DNA of 31,656 bases from Candidatus Marsarchaeota archaeon (GTDB taxonomy: Archaea > Micrarchaeota > Micrarchaeia > Norongarragalinales > UBA8480): positions 1 to 31,656 of the forward strand of contig JAMCXP010000048.1 in NCBI GenBank assembly GCA_023474775.1, written 5' to 3'. Positions within the stretch are counted from its first letter, which is position 1. Every line of letters starts with the position of its first letter. The position numbers were made by a program, and so were the translations under genes. The notes below the pieces were generated by a model. The model was given only the letters and a program-made list of their open reading frames with translations, had not been told where the DNA came from and did no database searches. Positions 2,619-25,499 of this stretch are shown one piece after another.

Positions 2619-3449
2619 CTATTTGAAAGCCTTGCCTCCTGAACCGCAAACTTTAATTCTGCCAATGCAGGTTTTTTTCATAGCCTCCCTAGCCTTTTCA
2701 AGATGAGTTCTGGGGTTTATGTCAGAGTTCTCATCAAGCGATTTTTTAAGCGCCAGAGTGAATGATTTTCTCAACTGAGTGTCCATGTTTATTTTTCTAA
2801 TCCCTAGCTTAACGGCCCTTTTAATCTGAGAGTCGGAAACGCCGGAACTGCCGTGAAGAACCAGCGGTGTTGGAATTTCACTGCTAATCTCCTTTAAAAG
2901 CTTAAAATTAAGCTTGAGCTTTTTTTCACTCCAACCGTGGCTGTTGCCGATGCTGACCGCCAGCGCGTCTGGCTTTGTAAGCCTATAAAAACGCATTGCC
3001 TCTTCAGGGCTGGTGTACCTAGCTTTTTTTTCCTCAACATAATCTTCCTTGCCTGCTAAAGCCCCAATCTCAAGTTCTATTGGAATTCCTCCGCTTATCT
3101 TCTTTGCTTGAAGTGAAATTTTCACGTTCTCATTGAAAGGCTTTGAAGAACCATCCAGCATTATAGAAGTAAAACCGCTTTTAACGCACCTTTTCACAGT
3201 GTCAAGATTCTTGCCATGATCAAGGTGAACGCCTACTGGAATTCTTGTTTTTTTAACCGCCTGCAGTGTGTAAGCAGCGAACTCTTCAAGCCCGGCGTAC
3301 TCAAGAGCGCTTTCAGACGCTTGAATTATAAGCGGTGATTCAGATTCTTCGCCGGCTTGAATTATAGCCTGAACCGTTTCAGTGTTGTAAGCATTAAACG
3401 CCGGAACCGCGTAATCCCCTCTTAATAGCGTTTTAAGCGAGGCCAGCAT
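2619..3449 (-). CDS. fba: Class II (metal-dependent) fructose-1,6-bisphosphate aldolase
   Basis: YAVPAFN, HLDHG, SIMLDGS, ELEIG, AVSIGNSHG, LVLHGSSG, KINMDT. Confidence 0.95.
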   Translation of the reverse strand: MLASLKTLLRGDYAVPAFNAYNTETVQAIIQAGEESESPLIIQASESALEYAGLEEFAAYTLQAVKKTRIPVGVHLDHGKNLDTVKRCVKSGFTSIMLDGSSKPFNENVKISLQAKKISGGIPIELEIGALAGKEDYVEEKKARYTSPEEAMRFYRLTKPDALAVSIGNSHGWSEKKLKLNFKLLKEISSEIPTPLVLHGSSGVSDSQIKRAVKLGIRKINMDTQLRKSFTLALKKSLDENSDINPRTHLEKAREAMKKTCIGRIKVCGSGGKAFK

Positions 3450-4768: not shown

Positions 4769-5041
4769 GGTTTTCAGGATAGCCGGGGGGTTAAGGGTCC
4801 CTTGGAAGCCGCAATCCCTTTGAGCGGGGTGATGAATTGATTGAAGGTTGTTTGTCAACAGTTTTCAACTCCCGTTTAACCGTAGACGTTTTGCCTTGCG
4901 TTACGGGGGAGGTTATGAACCGAGCCAGGTCGGAAGAAGCAACTCTAAGTAATCGCTCCCGTGCTCACAAGTCTACAAAGCCGAGGCGATGCGGGCTGTT
5001 GCCGCTGTTGGCTGCAATCGACTTTCAATCTCCTGAAAACC
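4769..5041 (+). ncRNA. ffs: Archaeal SRP (7S) RNA
   Basis: Helix 8 signature GCCAGGTCGGAAGAAGCAAC at about 4924-4943; Alu-like GCCGGGGGGTTAAGGGTCCC at the 5' end; terminal helix GGTTTTCAGGA (4769-4779) / TCCTGAAAACC (5031-5041), followed by a T-run. Confidence 0.93.
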
Positions 5042-7832: not shown

Positions 7833-7887
7833 AAAAAAGCGCGGAGGGCGGGATTCGAACCCGCGCGGCGCAGATGCACCAATAGCT

Positions 7888-7908
7888 TTCAACAGCTTTT
7901 CTCCAGTT
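7888..7908 (-). other. Canonical 37/38 intron of tRNA-Ser
   Basis: Central helix CTGC/GTTG (one U-U mismatch); removal restores a 7-nt anticodon loop. Confidence 0.78.
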
Positions 7909-7916
7909 TAGCAGGC

Positions 7917-7937
7917 TTACGGATTTTAAAAAGTTTT
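7917..7937 (-). other. Non-canonical tRNA intron at 29/30 of tRNA-Ser
   Basis: Relaxed BHB with central helix GCGG/CCGT. Confidence 0.8.
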
Positions 7938-8010
7938 TACCGCCATAGCCACTAGGCGACCTCCGCATTTAACTTGATTTTGAGCTGAAAAGCTTTTAAT
8001 CCATTCCCTT

Positions 8011-11879: not shown

Positions 11880-11897
11880 TATTCTTAAAACCTATTT

Positions 11898-12446
11898 TTA
11901 GGCTTTTAAGGTTTTAATAATTTTATTTATTTTGCTTTCAAGCTCTTCCTTGGTTGAATCGTTGATTATTTTTATTTTTGACAGGCTTATAGTTCCCTTG
12001 ATGTTTTGATTATTGCTTTCCCATTCTTTCTGCTCTGATTTTTTGAATTCTTCAAAAGTTTGGTTTTCCTCGCTTGCTCTTTTCCTTTTCATTGTTCTTT
12101 CATATCTTGTTTCTATTGGCGCGTCGATTGAGATGAGTGTGAATTTTTTCATTTTTTCCAACTCCCAAACTTCTTCAGGGGATCTTATCCCGTCTATAAC
12201 GGCGTTTTTAGGTTTTTCCATTTCTATTTTCTTGACTACCCTTTCAGCAAGAACCTGCGGTCCGTAATTCTCCCTAAGCTCGTTTGCTATGTTAAATAGG
12301 TTTTTTCTTTCAGGCGGCAAACCTCTTTTCTCGCACTCGTCCCTTACCTCCTCGCTTAAACTGTAATACTCAAATCCTTGCTTTTGTAAAATTTGAGAGG
12401 TTAAGCTCTTCCCAGAAGCGAATGTGCCCGTCAAACCTATTTTCAT
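11898..12446 (-). CDS. P-loop nucleotide kinase, dephospho-CoA kinase-like / archaeal UPF0200-like
   Basis: Walker A GTFASGKS, VIDGIRSPEE, IDAPIETRYER; substrate uncertain. Confidence 0.8.
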   Translation of the reverse strand: MKIGLTGTFASGKSLTSQILQKQGFEYYSLSEEVRDECEKRGLPPERKNLFNIANELRENYGPQVLAERVVKKIEMEKPKNAVIDGIRSPEEVWELEKMKKFTLISIDAPIETRYERTMKRKRASEENQTFEEFKKSEQKEWESNNQNIKGTISLSKIKIINDSTKEELESKINKIIKTLKA

Positions 12447-12675
12447 GAATTCTTTTTTAAAGCGTTTTCTTAAAAAAGCTTTTCTTTTTTTATGTTCTAT
12501 ATTAAATCTCGCAGTTAAATAGGTTTATTAACTCTTGAAAAGGCAAAACAATAATAGTAGAATTTTATGTCATGTTATTTGCCTTCAGTTTTTTTATTTA
12601 TTTCATTATCCCTAAGGTAAAGTTGGTAAGGTAGTTTGTAGAAGAGTACGTAAAAATTGAACCCGGCTTAAAATA

Positions 12676-12690
12676 GAAAGCTATATTAAG
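12676..12690 (+). promoter_or_regulatory. BRE/TATA-like promoter for the LAGLIDADG ORF and downstream tRNA-Gly
   Basis: GAAAGCTATATTAAG; the TATA ends about 25 nt before ATG 12715. Confidence 0.5.
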
Positions 12691-12714
12691 TAATTTCATA
12701 TCTAATTTAATAAA

Positions 12715-13443
12715 ATGAAATTTAATGATGAATATAAAATTCTTATAAAGAAAGGTATTTCATTAAATAAGATAAATAGAATTACAGGAATTGCAAAGTC
12801 AACTCTGTATCATCATTATAAAAAAATAAAAGGGAGGAAATATTCTTTAGTTTATTTTTCAGAATCCAATCCTGAAGTTGTCGGAGAATTCATGGGTATC
12901 TTTGCTGGAGATGGTAATTATTATTTTGATAGAAAGACATATCATCATACTATCAGAATTTTTACTGGCCTGTATGAAAAAGAATATGCGGATTTTCTAG
13001 AAAGTTTCCTTACCAAACTATTTTCTAAAAAACCAAGGAGGTATGCCAACAAAAAATCAGGCGTTATAATAACAGAGTTTTATTCTAGATTAATTTACGA
13101 TTTTATAAGAAAATATTTATATTGGGATAAACTAAAAGTTAAAAGTATACGACTAAAAAACTTTAGGAGTTTACATAGACCTTTCTTAAAAGGGTTTATA
13201 AGAGGATTATTCGATACTGATGGGGGGATATATAGAAAGAAGAATAAAGTTGCTATTGGAACTGCTTCAAAAAGACTGGCGTTTCAAATAAGAGAAATAT
13301 TTAGATTATTTAATATAGAGCCTGGTTTTTATAAATATAAACAAAAAGATTTTTGGTATATTGATATTTATGGTTCCAGAACGAAAAGATTTATGAAAAT
13401 TATTGGAACGCATCATCCAAATAAACTAATCAAGCGGCTTTGA
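12715..13443 (+). mobile_element. Free-standing HTH plus double-motif LAGLIDADG (homing endonuclease-like) ORF; the stop codon lies inside tRNA-Gly
   Basis: Motifs EFMGIFAGDG and FIRGLFDTDG; N-terminal HTH ISLNKINRITGIAKSTLYHHY; strongly AT-rich (9 G+C in 12721-12780). Confidence 0.85.
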
Positions 13444-13504
13444 TCTAATGGCATGATTCCACCTTCCCAAGGTGGTCGTGCGGGTTCGATTCCCGCAAGC
13501 CGCA
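13434..13504 (+). tRNA. tRNA-Gly(CCC), intronless
   Basis: GCGGCTT/AAGCCGC acceptor stem with A73; CCACC-TTCCCAA-GGTGG anticodon arm; GCGGG-TTCGATT-CCCGC T-arm. Confidence 0.96.
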
Positions 13505-13510
13505 CTTACT

Positions 13511-15181
13511 TTACATTTTTTCAAGCGTTTCAATGCCGAGCATTTCAAGGCACTCCCTGAGCGTCTCCTCTGTTTTTTTGACAAGCATAATTCTTAACCC
13601 GTTCTTGCTTTTAACCACCGTATTTTCAGAGTAGAAAGTGTTGAATAAGTGCGCTGTTTTTAATGCGTAATCCGCTATGATGTGTGGGCTTAACTCTCTT
13701 TCAGCCTGCTTTAATGCCGACTGGTAGAACGCCAGCTGACCTGCAAGTTTTTTTTCATTTTCATTCAACTCAAAATCAAAATTCATTTTTTCCAACTCTC
13801 CAAGTTCTTCCAATTTTTTGATAATGCTTTTGGTTCGTATATGAGTGTATTGTATGTAAGCGCCTGTGTCTCCTTCAAAGCTGACGCTCTGCTTTGCGTT
13901 GAACGAAATGTTCTTTTCGTTCCTCACTTTAAGCACTGAAAACTTCAACGCTGCTATTCCTACTTTTCTTGAAATATCATCCTTTTCTTTTTCGCTGTAA
14001 TTTTTTTCAGTTTTCTCCAGCTCTTTAAGCGCTTCAACCCTGCTTTCCTCCAGAATGTCTTCCAAAAGAATGGTGTTGCCCTCCCTGGTGGCGAATGCTT
14101 TCCCTTCAATTGTCATAAAACCATAACCAACATGCCTGAGAGTTTCGGTGTAATCCCTTCCAAGCATTTTAAGTATTTGAAACAACTGTTCAAAGTGGTT
14201 GTTCTGCCTTGAGTCAGTAACGTAGATACTTAAATCAGGGAGGTATTTTTCATTTTTATAGTCCGCCCAAGCCAAGTCTCTTGTTATATAAACAGTAGTC
14301 CCGTTGGATCTCATCAAAACAGTGTTTGGAATATTGTACTTTTCAAGCTTGACTATAAGCGCTCCTTCCTCAACAACAGCTATCCCCTTCTCCTCACATT
14401 CTTTGGCAATGAGCGCAGCGTTTTCTATGAACTGGCTTTCTCCTTTTATCTCGTCGAAGTTAATGCCCAGCAATTCATATGCTTTTTTGAATATTTTCAG
14501 CGAGTGTTCTCTTATTTTTTTAATCACTTTAAGCGTTTCAGCGTCTCCTTTCTCTATTTTTTCTATTATTCTATTAACTTCTGCTTTAAGCTCCTCGCTT
14601 TCCTCCACTTTCTTGTTTATTTCAACATAAGTGTCCAAAAGCTGCCTCTCGTTTTCTATTTTTTCCATATTAAGTCTTTTCATCGCGAGTATCATCAACG
14701 CCACCTGCCTTCCACTGTCACCGGGATAATTGATACTGAAAACCCGCCACCCGTTCCTTTCCATTATTTTTTTAATGCTGTCGCCAAGTATGGTGGACCT
14801 TATATGGCCAACGTGCAACGGCTTTCCTATGTTAGGAGATGAAAACTCCACGACCGCCGTTCTCGCTGCTTTTTCTTTTTTCTTTTCTTCAGCAAGGCTT
14901 TTGATGTAAAATTTTTTAGTGAAGGCCAGGTTTAAAAAATTGTTTTCAACTCCTTTAAAATCAACATTCTCGCAAAGATTTTTGTCTTCTATTATTTTTT
15001 TTATAATCTTCTCCGCGCTTCCCTTCTGCACTGCTTCAAAGAGCGGAATCGCCACGTCTCCGTAACTCTCATTTGCCCTAACGGGCTTTGTCTTTAAACC
15101 CTCGCCTTCAAGAAGCTTTGCTAGACCTTCCATTATTTTTTCAGCTTCCGACTGACGCATGTTTTGTCTTTCACTTCTCAA
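13511..15181 (-). CDS. argS: Arginyl-tRNA synthetase (true start may be ATG 15160)
   Basis: VVEFSSPNIGKPLHVGHIRSTILGD (HIGH), YPGDSGRQ, VYITRDLA, SFEGDTGAYIQYTHIR, DALR-type C-terminus. Confidence 0.97.
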   Translation of the reverse strand: MRSERQNMRQSEAEKIMEGLAKLLEGEGLKTKPVRANESYGDVAIPLFEAVQKGSAEKIIKKIIEDKNLCENVDFKGVENNFLNLAFTKKFYIKSLAEEKKKEKAARTAVVEFSSPNIGKPLHVGHIRSTILGDSIKKIMERNGWRVFSINYPGDSGRQVALMILAMKRLNMEKIENERQLLDTYVEINKKVEESEELKAEVNRIIEKIEKGDAETLKVIKKIREHSLKIFKKAYELLGINFDEIKGESQFIENAALIAKECEEKGIAVVEEGALIVKLEKYNIPNTVLMRSNGTTVYITRDLAWADYKNEKYLPDLSIYVTDSRQNNHFEQLFQILKMLGRDYTETLRHVGYGFMTIEGKAFATREGNTILLEDILEESRVEALKELEKTEKNYSEKEKDDISRKVGIAALKFSVLKVRNEKNISFNAKQSVSFEGDTGAYIQYTHIRTKSIIKKLEELGELEKMNFDFELNENEKKLAGQLAFYQSALKQAERELSPHIIADYALKTAHLFNTFYSENTVVKSKNGLRIMLVKKTEETLRECLEMLGIETLEKM

Positions 15182-23054: not shown

Positions 23055-23143
23055 GCTTATTTTCTCTTGCGTCGGGTTTATTAAATTTTTTGAGAATAAT
23101 TTCTAATGCAAAGCCGCAGTAGCTCAGCTGGTTAGAGCGCCAG

Positions 23144-23162
23144 TTCTTTTTTACAAGGCGTG
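23144..23162 (+). other. Non-canonical tRNA intron at 30/31 of tRNA-Met
   Basis: BHB central helix CGCC/GGCG (perfect), outer helix GAG/CTC. Confidence 0.87.
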
Positions 23163-23169
23163 ACTCATA

Positions 23170-23191
23170 AATTCAAACTCAAGATTGAGCC
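23170..23191 (+). other. Canonical 37/38 intron of tRNA-Met
   Basis: BHB central helix CTCA/TGAG, inner helix ATT/GAT. Confidence 0.9.
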
Positions 23192-23231
23192 ATCTGGAGG
23201 TGGGGGGTTCAACTCCCCCCTGCGGCATTGT

Positions 23232-25211: not shown

Positions 25212-25499
25212 GAGTGCGAAGGCGGTACCCCGCCTTTTGTTGTACGAAAAACACCGAGTGTTTTTCCATTGGCAGCATTTATCTAAGCGGCTTTAAAAAA
25301 GCCTTGCGCCATACGGTGGGGCTCGTTTCACTTCCAGCGGTGTTAAGGCATCGTCGTGTCACGCGCCTGAAAAAAACATCGCAGGAATGTCGTTTCTGCT
25401 CCCCACCCCTGCCTTAAGCAGGGAAGGTTTGCCTTCTCATTGAAATTTGGTGGGCGGAAGTTCCTCCCTATAAAGGGTAAGCTGCCCGCCTTCACGCTC
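25212..25499 (-). ncRNA. rnpB: Archaeal RNase P RNA
   Basis: Reverse strand carries GAGGAACTTCCGCC (CR-I), AGCAGAAACG (CR-II), TGAAACG (CR-III), GCTTAGATAAATG (CR-IV) and AACAAAAGGCGGGGTA (CR-V); P1 GAGCGTGAAGGCGG/CCGCCTTCGCACTC. Confidence 0.94.

What the first reader, a model, noticed from the sequence alone, without database searches (positions are those of the whole stretch)
12676..13504. HTH-LAGLIDADG endonuclease gene that takes its last codons and stop from the 5' end of tRNA-Gly
Seen: the ORF ends ATC AAG CGG CTT TGA, and GCGGCTTTGA (13434-13443) is nucleotides 1-10 of tRNA-Gly(CCC). The ORF is far more AT-rich than flanking genes, keeps acidic residues in both LAGLIDADG motifs, and has no intein splicing motifs and no intron around it. 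The only clear promoter lies upstream of the ORF, so the tRNA is probably co-transcribed. Inference: a free-standing selfish element that inserts between a tRNA gene and its promoter and uses the conserved tRNA 5' end as target or anchor. RNase P cleavage at tRNA +1 would remove the stop codon and leave a non-stop mRNA, a built-in way to limit nuclease expression. Alternative: a domesticated WhiA-like DNA-binding regulator. This is my best candidate for an undescribed system in the window.
Basis: partly seen in the sequence, partly recalled or inferred. Interest (0 to 1): 0.85.

Follow-up and report, generated by a model that had tools for sequence, protein, structure and literature searches.

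The report
Homing-endonuclease cassette carrying replacement tRNA-Gly
A selfish DNA-cutting-enzyme gene in this tiny archaeon runs straight into a tRNA-Gly gene, and comparison with two sister species shows that the enzyme gene and that tRNA arrived together and replaced the resident tRNA, a natural "cut the target and bring a spare" element.

Summary
A 242-aa ORF (12715-13443) ends in TGA, which is nt 8-10 of tRNA-Gly(CCC) (13434-13504). The protein is an I-DmoI-like double-LAGLIDADG nuclease with an N-terminal HTH, and both catalytic Asp residues are kept.

About 70% of 176 relatives in DPANN archaea and CPR bacteria also end at or inside a tRNA gene, and nuclease clades follow tRNA type.

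Two same-genus genomes have the same neighbours and tRNA-Gly(CCC) but no nuclease gene. They are empty alleles. The window's tRNA itself is foreign:
- It differs from both congeners at 13 positions.
- 11 of those 13 states match the tRNA linked to a related nuclease elsewhere.

Relatives show the cassette (own promoter, nuclease, tRNA) sitting inside a broken, inverted tRNA. A decayed piece of that stump survives here at 12657-12666.

"Inserted between the tRNA and its promoter" is not: the element replaced the promoter and the tRNA. The RNase P non-stop idea is untested, and a promoter-like site lies inside the ORF's 3' end.

This scan has found the same kind of element before on other DNA. 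I found no paper describing it.

The parts
12492..12654 (.). Extra DNA with no counterpart in the empty alleles and no match in any related cassette. Its origin is unknown. It holds a possible remnant of the resident tRNA promoter, TTGAAAAGGCA, at 12544-12555.
   Evidence: Homology to G001 and G002 stops at 12491. BLAST against all loci finds nothing for 12492-12654.
12655..12672 (-). Decayed stump of an inverted tRNA T arm (TTGAACCCGG at 12657-12666 is the reverse complement of CCGGGTTCAA). This is the conserved left end of the cassette.
   Evidence: It aligns with the intact inverted tRNA 3' parts at the same place in L188, L190, L109, L008, L004, L012 and L112. Window 12655-12696 matches the L190, L012 and L191 cassettes at E=3e-4 to 0.014.
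12673..12689 (+). The cassette's own archaeal promoter: BRE-like ATAGAAAGC plus TATA box TATATTAA. The TATA centre lies about 29 nt before the ATG, so the mRNA is leaderless or nearly so.
   Evidence: Conserved as aATAGAAAGnTATATTAA in relatives. The spacing is read. Promoter function is inferred.
12715..13443 (+). Homing-endonuclease gene, 242 aa. HTH at residues 6-39 (12730-12831). LAGLIDADG motif 1 with D66 (12910-12912). Motif 2 with D169 (13219-13221).
13383..13397 (+). BRE/TATA-like GAAAAGATTTATGAA inside the ORF (codons K-R-F-M-K), 37-51 nt before tRNA +1. Candidate separate promoter for the tRNA.
   Evidence: It resembles the resident tRNA-Gly promoter of G001 and G002 and other promoters in the window. 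The family shows enrichment at this distance, but a control does not separate promoter from peptide constraint.
13434..13504 (+). Cassette-borne tRNA-Gly(CCC), intron-less. It is the only tRNA-Gly(CCC) found in this 61%-complete genome.
13441..13443 (+). Stop codon TGA of the nuclease ORF, which is tRNA nt U8-G9-A10.
13516..13521 (+). T6 run, a candidate archaeal terminator for the tRNA or for read-through transcripts. Homology to the congeners resumes just before it.
   Evidence: Terminator function is inferred from the known oligo-T termination of archaeal RNA polymerase.

Best explanation
Window 12655-13504 is a mobile cassette. It consists of a decayed stump of an inverted tRNA, its own BRE/TATA promoter, a free-standing I-DmoI-like LAGLIDADG homing-endonuclease gene with an N-terminal HTH, and a complete tRNA-Gly(CCC) fused onto the end of the ORF.

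Proposed cycle (inferred):
1. The nuclease cuts naive tRNA-Gly(CCC) genes inside the tRNA body, probably around the 3' strand of the anticodon stem, the variable loop and the T stem. In relatives the broken resident tRNA ends at about position 43/44.
2. Repair copies the cassette from a carrier.
3. The cell loses its own tRNA but receives the cassette's copy, which escapes cutting because its anticodon stem, variable loop and T stem carry compensated changes. In other family members a small intron may play this part.

In this genome the cassette's tRNA lies exactly where the resident tRNA-Gly(CCC) lay. The resident tRNA and its promoter are gone. The likely route was recombination through the tRNA on the right side and an illegitimate join on the left.

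The ORF has no stop of its own because nothing separates it from the tRNA, so the stop comes from U8-G9-A10.

Shown here: the anatomy, the empty alleles, the foreign tRNA, the stumps in relatives, clade-by-tRNA specificity, purifying selection and the fold. Inferred: nuclease activity, the cut site, the route of entry and the transcript structure.
For: Empty alleles. Congeners G001 and G002 keep the kinase-like gene, tRNA-Gly(CCC) and ArgRS. They have 56 and 100 nt where this window has 940 nt, and no nuclease homologue was found in them.

Foreign tRNA.
- The window's tRNA has 19 and 16 differences from G001 and G002, but only 10 from the tRNA linked to the 62%-identical nuclease in L190.
- It differs from both congeners at 13 positions, and 11 of those states are shared with L190.
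- T7:A66 and the T stem GCGGG/CCCGC are shared with the nuclease-linked tRNAs of L188, L190, L191 and L109, and occur in none of 13 free tRNA-Gly(CCC) genes of the order.
- G001's tRNA is 85-89% identical to those of other families of the order, but 77% identical to the window's.

Stumps. In L188 the cassette is flanked by pieces that match positions 48-72 and 1-25 of a tRNA-Gly(CCC) at 23/25 each, in inverted orientation, and their acceptor halves pair. The same inverted 3' piece followed by the promoter is conserved in at least 10 relatives and is decayed here. L015 has near-identical direct repeats of the tRNA 3' part on both sides of its nuclease gene.

Family.
- 124 of 176 loci are joined to a tRNA.
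- tRNA type needs 23 changes on the nuclease tree, against a mean of 37.8 (minimum 34) in 300 shuffles.
- dN/dS is 0.13-0.16 for the two unsaturated pairs.
- The nuclease is 57/42/43% identical to genomes whose ArgRS is 36/35/34% identical.

Enzyme. Both catalytic Asp residues are invariant. A family profile hits I-DmoI at 6e-8. The model has pLDDT 94.7 and matches I-DmoI with a TM-score of 0.81.
Against: - No cleavage assay exists, and the cut site is inferred only from stump ends in relatives.
- In this window the stump is just a 10-12-nt remnant, and there is no 5' stump downstream of the tRNA. The 'inside a broken tRNA' anatomy is therefore seen in relatives, not here.
- 163 nt on the left (12492-12654) are unexplained.
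- A 71-nt tRNA gives limited phylogenetic signal. Several of the 13 distinguishing positions are base-paired, so they represent about 7-8 independent events. One free tRNA of the order (G033) is 83% identical to the window's.
- tRNA-Gly(CCC) may be dispensable where tRNA-Gly(UCC) reads GGG, so the host's dependence on the cassette tRNA is not shown.
- The decayed stump could mean that this copy is old and no longer mobile.
Confidence: 0.7

Rival explanations
1. First reader's model. The element inserts between a resident tRNA gene and its promoter and uses the tRNA 5' end as target or anchor. The resident promoter then drives both genes, and RNase P cleavage at +1 leaves a non-stop nuclease mRNA as a built-in brake.
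For: The right edge of the extra DNA lies 2 nt before tRNA +1. In the closest clade tRNA +1 is always the third position of a codon, and the stop is always tRNA nt 8-10, as TGA or TAG. Among 13 free tRNAs, nt 8-10 are mostly TGG. An RNase P RNA gene lies in the same window.
Against: The resident promoter is not upstream of the ORF, which has a cassette-borne promoter conserved in relatives from other genomic contexts. The tRNA is not the resident one. Stumps in relatives place the insertion inside the tRNA. In the wider clade the tail runs from 0 to about 33 codons, in all three frames, so the place of the stop is largely incidental. There are no RNA data.
Confidence: 0.1
2. This is a relic. 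The cassette entered long ago and the nuclease no longer homes. The ORF, or at least its 3' end, is kept because it carries the promoter and 5' leader of the only tRNA-Gly(CCC).
For: The stump is decayed here but intact in relatives. A BRE/TATA-like site lies at 13383-13397. TATA-like 8-mers are enriched 29-46 nt before linked tRNAs (24/92, against 4-12/92 in other windows of the same size), much as for free tRNAs (31/95). The distance from the conserved F codon to tRNA +1 is held at 32-44 nt in archaeal members.
Against: The whole 242-aa frame is open and both catalytic Asp residues and all family-invariant residues are kept. The family is under purifying selection over the full length. The TATA-likeness of the F-h-x-x-h-x-P codons is the same in members without a same-strand tRNA (p=0.36).
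Confidence: 0.13
3. It is a domesticated WhiA-like DNA-binding regulator of the adjacent tRNA rather than a nuclease.
For: An HTH plus a double-LAGLIDADG scaffold, as in WhiA. There are weak matches to Pfam LAGLIDADG_WhiA (17.2 bits here, 11 of 37 members at E<=0.01) and Foldseek hits to WhiA.
Against: The WhiA model scores below its cut-off of 23.2 bits. The HTH is N-terminal, not C-terminal. The catalytic acidic residues are invariant. No homologue was found in either congener, and only 3 of 11 same-family genomes gave a match, all distant. The ORF has foreign composition. It travels with a foreign tRNA. I-DmoI and intein nucleases are better structural matches.
Confidence: 0.05

Closest known systems
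Phage T4 SegB, a free-standing GIY-YIG homing endonuclease in the tRNA gene cluster (PMC2330249)
   Same: It is free-standing. It lies among tRNA genes, recognises a site containing the conserved T-arm motif of a tRNA gene, and drives inheritance of its own gene together with the neighbouring tRNA genes while the recipient's tRNA-region markers are lost.
   Different: It belongs to another nuclease family (GIY-YIG against LAGLIDADG plus HTH) and sits in a phage rather than a cellular genome. It has no ORF-tRNA overlap, no stumps of a broken target and no one-to-one nuclease/spare-tRNA unit.
Fungal mitochondrial mobile endonuclease ORFs (mORFs) that carry a foreign gene terminus, e.g. Allomyces macrogynus atp6 and Glomus atp6/atp9/cox2/nad3 (as summarised in PMC3630166)
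   Same: The endonuclease gene inserts into an essential gene and brings a replacement copy of the displaced part. The native piece stays behind as a duplicate. The inserted piece is more divergent from close relatives than the native one, which is the same argument used here for the tRNA.
   Different: Those targets are protein-coding genes in organelles and the replaced part is a C-terminus. Here the target is a tRNA gene in archaea (and CPR bacteria), and a whole tRNA or a tRNA end is supplied.
I-DmoI, I-Tsp061I and intein-borne archaeal LAGLIDADG endonucleases
   Same: The same monomeric two-domain fold and catalytic motifs: profile E=6e-8 and TM-score 0.81 to I-DmoI.
   Different: Those enzymes are encoded inside rRNA introns or inteins, which restore the host gene by splicing. 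This one is free-standing, has an extra N-terminal HTH, and restores function by carrying a spare tRNA.
Collaborative/trans homing (F-CphI with the cyanophage psbA intron; T4 mobE with I-TevIII, PMC2790892) and synthetic cleave-and-rescue drives (F-CphI and the synthetic drives are from my own knowledge)
   Same: A free-standing nuclease next to a resistant version of its target gene, inherited as one unit.
   Different: In those cases resistance comes from an intron or from engineered recoding. Here it apparently comes from compensated stem changes in this copy, and possibly from small introns in relatives (L189, L191, L002).

Membership tests
LAGLIDADG homing endonucleases (monomeric, I-DmoI-like) | Two LAGLIDADG motifs, each ending in a catalytic acidic residue | tested here: met
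   GIFAGDG with D66 and GLFDTDGG with D169. Both are invariant in 37 relatives.
LAGLIDADG homing endonucleases (monomeric, I-DmoI-like) | Significant match to family profiles and to solved members | tested here: met
   Pfam LAGLIDADG_3 scores 45.9 bits against a cut-off of 22.5 and matches 37 of 37 members. A family profile hits I-DmoI at E=6e-8 over both halves.
LAGLIDADG homing endonucleases (monomeric, I-DmoI-like) | Duplicated alpha-beta-beta-alpha-beta-beta-alpha fold forming a DNA-binding saddle | tested here: met
   The AF2 model has pLDDT 94.7. Foldseek matches I-DmoI at TMt 0.81, and also I-Tsp061I and the TliVMA intein nuclease.
LAGLIDADG homing endonucleases (monomeric, I-DmoI-like) | Site-specific double-strand cleavage of a long target | not testable with these tools
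   This needs an in vitro assay. Complex prediction with DNA was not folded.
Homing elements in general | Presence/absence polymorphism at a homologous site, with a patchy distribution that does not follow the species tree | tested here: met
   Empty alleles in G001 and G002. The nuclease is 57% identical to a genome whose ArgRS is 36% identical. Close homologues sit in unrelated gene neighbourhoods.
Intron- or intein-encoded homing endonucleases | The gene lies inside a self-splicing or BHB intron, or in frame inside a host protein | tested here: not met
   It has its own ATG and promoter. No Hint/intein family was found. The adjacent tRNA is complete and uninterrupted.
Endonuclease cassettes that carry a replacement of the gene they break (mORF type) | The element-adjacent copy of the target is foreign, i.e. 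more divergent from close relatives than the flanking genes are | tested here: met
   The tRNA is 73-77% identical to the congeners (19 and 16 of 71 positions differ), while the flanks are 84-86% identical to G001. 11 of 13 distinguishing states are shared with a nuclease-linked tRNA.
Endonuclease cassettes that carry a replacement of the gene they break (mORF type) | Remnants of the displaced native copy flank the element | tested here: inconclusive
   Clear in the relatives L188, L190, L004 and L015. In this window there is only a decayed 10-12-nt piece at 12655-12666 and no downstream stump. An Rfam search for partial tRNAs found none.
WhiA-type regulators | Degenerate LAGLIDADG scaffold without catalytic residues, C-terminal HTH, vertical inheritance | tested here: not met
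   The Asp residues are kept. The HTH is N-terminal. The WhiA model scores below its cut-off. The distribution is patchy.
Integrase-driven elements that integrate into tRNA genes | A tyrosine or serine recombinase within the inserted DNA | tested here: not met
   The 940 extra nt hold only the 242-aa nuclease ORF.

The most novel reading that the evidence does not exclude
The cassette is a natural cleave-and-rescue drive for a tRNA gene in which the two genes are functionally interlocked. The last codons of the nuclease double as the promoter and 5' leader of the rescue tRNA. On read-through transcripts, RNase P cleavage at tRNA +1 both matures the tRNA and removes the nuclease's stop codon, so nuclease output is coupled to tRNA processing. 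The same design would have spread across many tRNA species in DPANN archaea and CPR bacteria, and may seed odd tRNA introns.
Probability: 0.15. Interest if true: 0.85.

Novelty: new variant of a known kind. Interest (0 to 1): 0.6.

Why it matters
Homing endonucleases are thought to survive by hiding in introns or inteins that repair the damage of insertion by splicing. Here the repair is different: the element brings a working, probably cut-resistant copy of the tRNA it displaces.

If this is confirmed, it would do four things:
- It would explain why hundreds of LAGLIDADG genes in ultra-small archaea and bacteria sit flush against tRNA genes.
- It would show that tRNA genes are swapped horizontally by selfish elements.
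- It would offer a source of tRNA sequence and intron oddities in these lineages.
- It would provide natural nucleases with tRNA-gene targets.

This window is a good test case. Two congeners supply the uncut target allele, and the cassette supplies the presumed resistant allele.

Tried and rejected
- An Rfam E-value scan of 12440-13560 for partial tRNAs found only the intact tRNA.
- Sequencing runs: only three DNA runs of a mine-tailings metagenome hold the stretch. There is no RNA run, and laying their contigs showed no joined (empty) form and no variants. Transcript ends and within-population polymorphism therefore could not be tested.
- Complex prediction of the nuclease with the G001 tRNA gene was not folded, so it gives no evidence either way.
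- Internal-promoter test: TATA-like 8-mers are enriched at -46..-29 of linked tRNAs. The control showed that the conserved F-h-x-x-h-x-P codons are equally TATA-like in members without a same-strand tRNA. I therefore do not claim a promoter.
- BLAST of the left extra DNA 12492-12654 against all 190 loci gave nothing.
- dN/dS between the window's gene and L188 or L190 is saturated (dS 1.6-4), so only closer pairs elsewhere in the family were used.
- Vertical inheritance with precise loss in both congeners was rejected, because their tRNA is the order-typical one while the window's is the nuclease-linked type.
The repeat succeeded.

Full report
OBSERVATION. The ORF 12715-13443 (+, 242 aa) ends ATC AAG CGG CTT TGA. 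ARAGORN and Rfam place a complete, intron-less tRNA-Gly(CCC) at 13434-13504/5 (60.9 bits). The last ten bases of the ORF are therefore tRNA nt 1-10, and the stop codon is U8-G9-A10. The ORF is AT-rich: GC is 0.26-0.31 against about 0.36-0.45 around it. The window is archaeal, with an RNase P RNA of archaeal type at 25214-25497. It comes from a 433-kb, 61%-complete assembly of a small genome.

THE PROTEIN. Pfam gives LAGLIDADG_3 (E=6.8e-12) and a weak resolvase-type HTH at residues 7-32. No intein family was found. In an alignment of 37 relatives the acidic residues of both motifs (D66, D169) are invariant. HTH_7 is matched by 17 of 37 members. A family profile hits I-DmoI over both halves at E=6e-8. 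The AlphaFold model (pLDDT 94.7) shows an N-terminal three-helix bundle followed by two alpha-beta-beta-alpha-beta-beta-alpha halves. Its best structural matches are the nuclease domain of the TliVMA intein, I-DmoI (TM-score 0.81) and I-Tsp061I, with WhiA lower. For two unsaturated pairs in the family, dN/dS is 0.13-0.16. This is a free-standing, probably active, I-DmoI-like enzyme with an added HTH. Activity itself was not tested.

THE FAMILY IS TIED TO tRNA GENES. I collected 186 related loci from genomes, metagenomes and look-ups of the closest proteins.
- Of 176 evaluable loci, 96 have a same-strand tRNA beginning at the end of the ORF and 28 have an opposite-strand tRNA there. Only 8 of 171 have a tRNA within 200 nt upstream.
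- Hosts are mostly DPANN archaea, plus a tRNA-Tyr clade in CPR bacteria.
- The conserved protein ends within a few codons of tRNA +1. The tail is simply the translated tRNA up to the first stop, 0 to about 33 codons in any frame.
- In the closest clade (55-69% identity) tRNA +1 is the third base of a codon in every same-strand member. The stop is tRNA nt 8-10 (TGA or TAG) in the window and in L188, L189, L190, L191, L192 and L194. In L193 it falls at nt 5-7 and in L002 it ends on nt 1.
- On a nuclease tree, tRNA type changes 23 times, against a mean of 37.8 (minimum 34) in 300 label shuffles. A 24-member clade is all tRNA-Gly(CCC) except one tRNA-Glu locus (L110) and L108, where no tRNA was found (three ARAGORN calls of Ser or Trp were corrected by eye, and the L189 tRNA is). 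Another clade is nearly all tRNA-Ala(GGC).

EMPTY ALLELES. The two same-genus genomes held (G001, 94% complete; G002, 77% complete) gave no match to the nuclease. Both keep the same neighbourhood. Window 11895-12491 and 13432-15181 align to one contig in each (84% and 86% identity in G001; 80% and 70% in G002). Between these blocks they have 56 and 100 nt where the window has 940 nt. Their tRNA-Gly(CCC) has a clear BRE/TATA (GAAAAGCATTTATAT), with the TATA box starting 33 nt before +1.

THE tRNA CAME WITH THE NUCLEASE.
- The window's tRNA has 19 and 16 differences from G001 and G002, which differ from each other by 11. It has only 10 differences from the tRNA attached to the 62%-identical nuclease of L190.
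- It differs from both congeners at 13 positions, and 11 of those states are shared with L190. Several of these positions are base-paired, so they amount to roughly 7-8 independent events.
- The pair T7:A66 and the T stem GCGGG/CCCGC occur in the nuclease-linked tRNAs of L188, L190, L191 and L109, and in none of 13 free tRNA-Gly(CCC) genes of the same order.
- G001's tRNA is 85-89% identical to those of other families of the order, but only 77% identical to the window's.
- Homology to the congeners resumes within five bases after the tRNA's 3' end.
- The close homologues lie in unrelated gene neighbourhoods. The nuclease is 57/42/43% identical to genomes whose ArgRS is only 36/35/34% identical.
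The simplest reading is that nuclease gene and tRNA move as one unit and here replaced the resident tRNA and its promoter.

STUMPS SHOW WHERE THE ELEMENT LANDS.
- Directly upstream of the nuclease promoter, relatives carry the reverse complement of a tRNA 3' part: variable loop, T arm, acceptor 3' strand and discriminator. It is followed by a conserved aATAGAAAGnTATATTAA about 25-35 nt before the start codon.
- In L188 the piece upstream and a second piece downstream of the linked tRNA match positions 48-72 and 1-25 of a tRNA-Gly(CCC) at 23/25 each. Their acceptor halves pair. The cassette therefore sits inside a broken, inverted tRNA whose 3' stump begins at about position 44. L190 is alike.
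- In L004 and L015 the nuclease instead meets the 3' end of a full inverted tRNA, and a second copy of that 3' part lies on the other side of the gene. In L015 the two copies are 28/30 identical.
- In the Ala(GGC) clade a same-strand 5' stump (positions 1-27) lies 150-220 nt upstream of the ORF.
- In this window only TTGAACCCGG (12657-12666) survives of the stump, followed by ATAGAAAGCTATATTAA (12673-12689). Window 12655-12696 matches the cassettes of L190, L012 and L191 (E=3e-4 to 0.014).
- The 163 nt to the left (12492-12654) match nothing. They hold TTGAAAAGGCA (12544-12555), perhaps what is left of the resident promoter.
- No 5' stump follows the tRNA here. I infer that the cassette entered by recombination between its tRNA and the resident one on the right side, and by an illegitimate join on the left.

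HOW IT PROBABLY WORKS. The nuclease is made from its own promoter. The TATA centre lies about 29 nt before the ATG, so the mRNA is leaderless or nearly so. It cuts naive tRNA-Gly(CCC) genes inside the tRNA body, and repair copies the cassette. The cassette's tRNA escapes cutting. The densest block of differences from the congeners is at positions 39-47, with compensating changes at 27/29 and 63-64. In relatives the linked tRNA often has a small intron, or an insertion in the T loop as in L189. The carrier then relies on the cassette's tRNA, which is the only tRNA-Gly(CCC) found in this incomplete genome. The cut site, the basis of resistance and the host's dependence are inferences.

TRANSCRIPTION AND THE RNase P IDEA. 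A BRE/TATA-like GAAAAGATTTATGAA lies inside the ORF at 13383-13397, 37-51 nt before tRNA +1. It resembles the resident promoter of the congeners and other promoters in the window. Across the family, TATA-like 8-mers are enriched 29-46 nt before linked tRNAs (24/92, against 4-12/92 in other windows of the same size), about as in free tRNAs (31/95). The conserved F codon sits 32-44 nt before +1 in archaeal members. However, the same codons are equally TATA-like in members without a same-strand tRNA (p=0.36), so peptide constraint and promoter function cannot be separated. If the nuclease mRNA does read into the tRNA, RNase P cleavage would remove the stop codon. That follows from established RNase P function but is untested. 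Only DNA runs hold this sequence.

WHAT IS KNOWN. The closest analogues are listed here.
- T4 SegB: free-standing, lies in a tRNA cluster, its site includes the T-arm motif, and it carries neighbouring tRNA genes along (PMC2330249).
- Fungal mitochondrial mORFs that insert into a gene and bring a foreign replacement terminus (PMC3630166).
- Trans or collaborative homing (PMC2790892, listed).
Full-text searches for LAGLIDADG genes with tRNA genes in DPANN or Woesearchaeota, or for free-standing homing endonucleases at archaeal tRNA genes, found no description of this arrangement. Those notes gave me the 'brings a spare tRNA' lead, which I tested here. One of them, which read the arrangement as settling 'without breaking anything', is contradicted for this clade by the stumps.

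VERDICT. The feature is a homing-endonuclease cassette that carries its own tRNA-Gly(CCC) and has replaced the resident gene. I class it as a new variant of a known kind. This window's particular value is the pair of clean empty alleles, which makes the cleavage test direct.

Noticed in passing
L189:3217-3322: The tRNA-Gly(CCC) joined to the sister nuclease (63% identity) has a 39-nt 'T loop', that is a roughly 32-nt insertion at a non-canonical place in the T arm (Rfam 36.5 bits). ARAGORN misses it. It may be an odd intron that interrupts the nuclease's presumed target.
   Followed up: partly
L195 and L108, about 60-200 nt upstream of the nuclease start: In two members of the closest clade the nuclease gene lies directly behind a 5S rRNA gene. 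L195 then meets an inverted tRNA-Gly(CCC), and L108 has no tRNA at its end.
   Followed up: no
L111:3552-3638: A nuclease-linked tRNA-Gly(CCC) of 87 nt, with extra bases between the anticodon stem and the T stem. This looks like another non-canonical insertion near the inferred target region.
   Followed up: no
G039:C27:2708-3392 and G027:C23:132451-133173 (L087, L086): In another family of the same order, a distant LAGLIDADG ORF (30-32% identity, 322-356 aa) also lies just upstream of a tRNA-Gly(CCC). That tRNA has the order-typical sequence.
   Followed up: no
L194:3297-3345: A second tRNA-like start (ARAGORN calls tRNA-Pro at 3301) follows the cassette tRNA after about 4 nt.
   Followed up: no
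window 7840-7966 (-) and 23113-23227 (+): Rfam finds two further tRNA genes (36.8 and 52 bits) that plain ARAGORN misses. Their lengths of 127 and 115 nt imply introns.
   Followed up: no
window 4775-5035 (+): The SRP RNA is matched by the bacterial large SRP model (77.9 bits) in an otherwise archaeal window. This is probably just the clan's best-scoring model.
   Followed up: no
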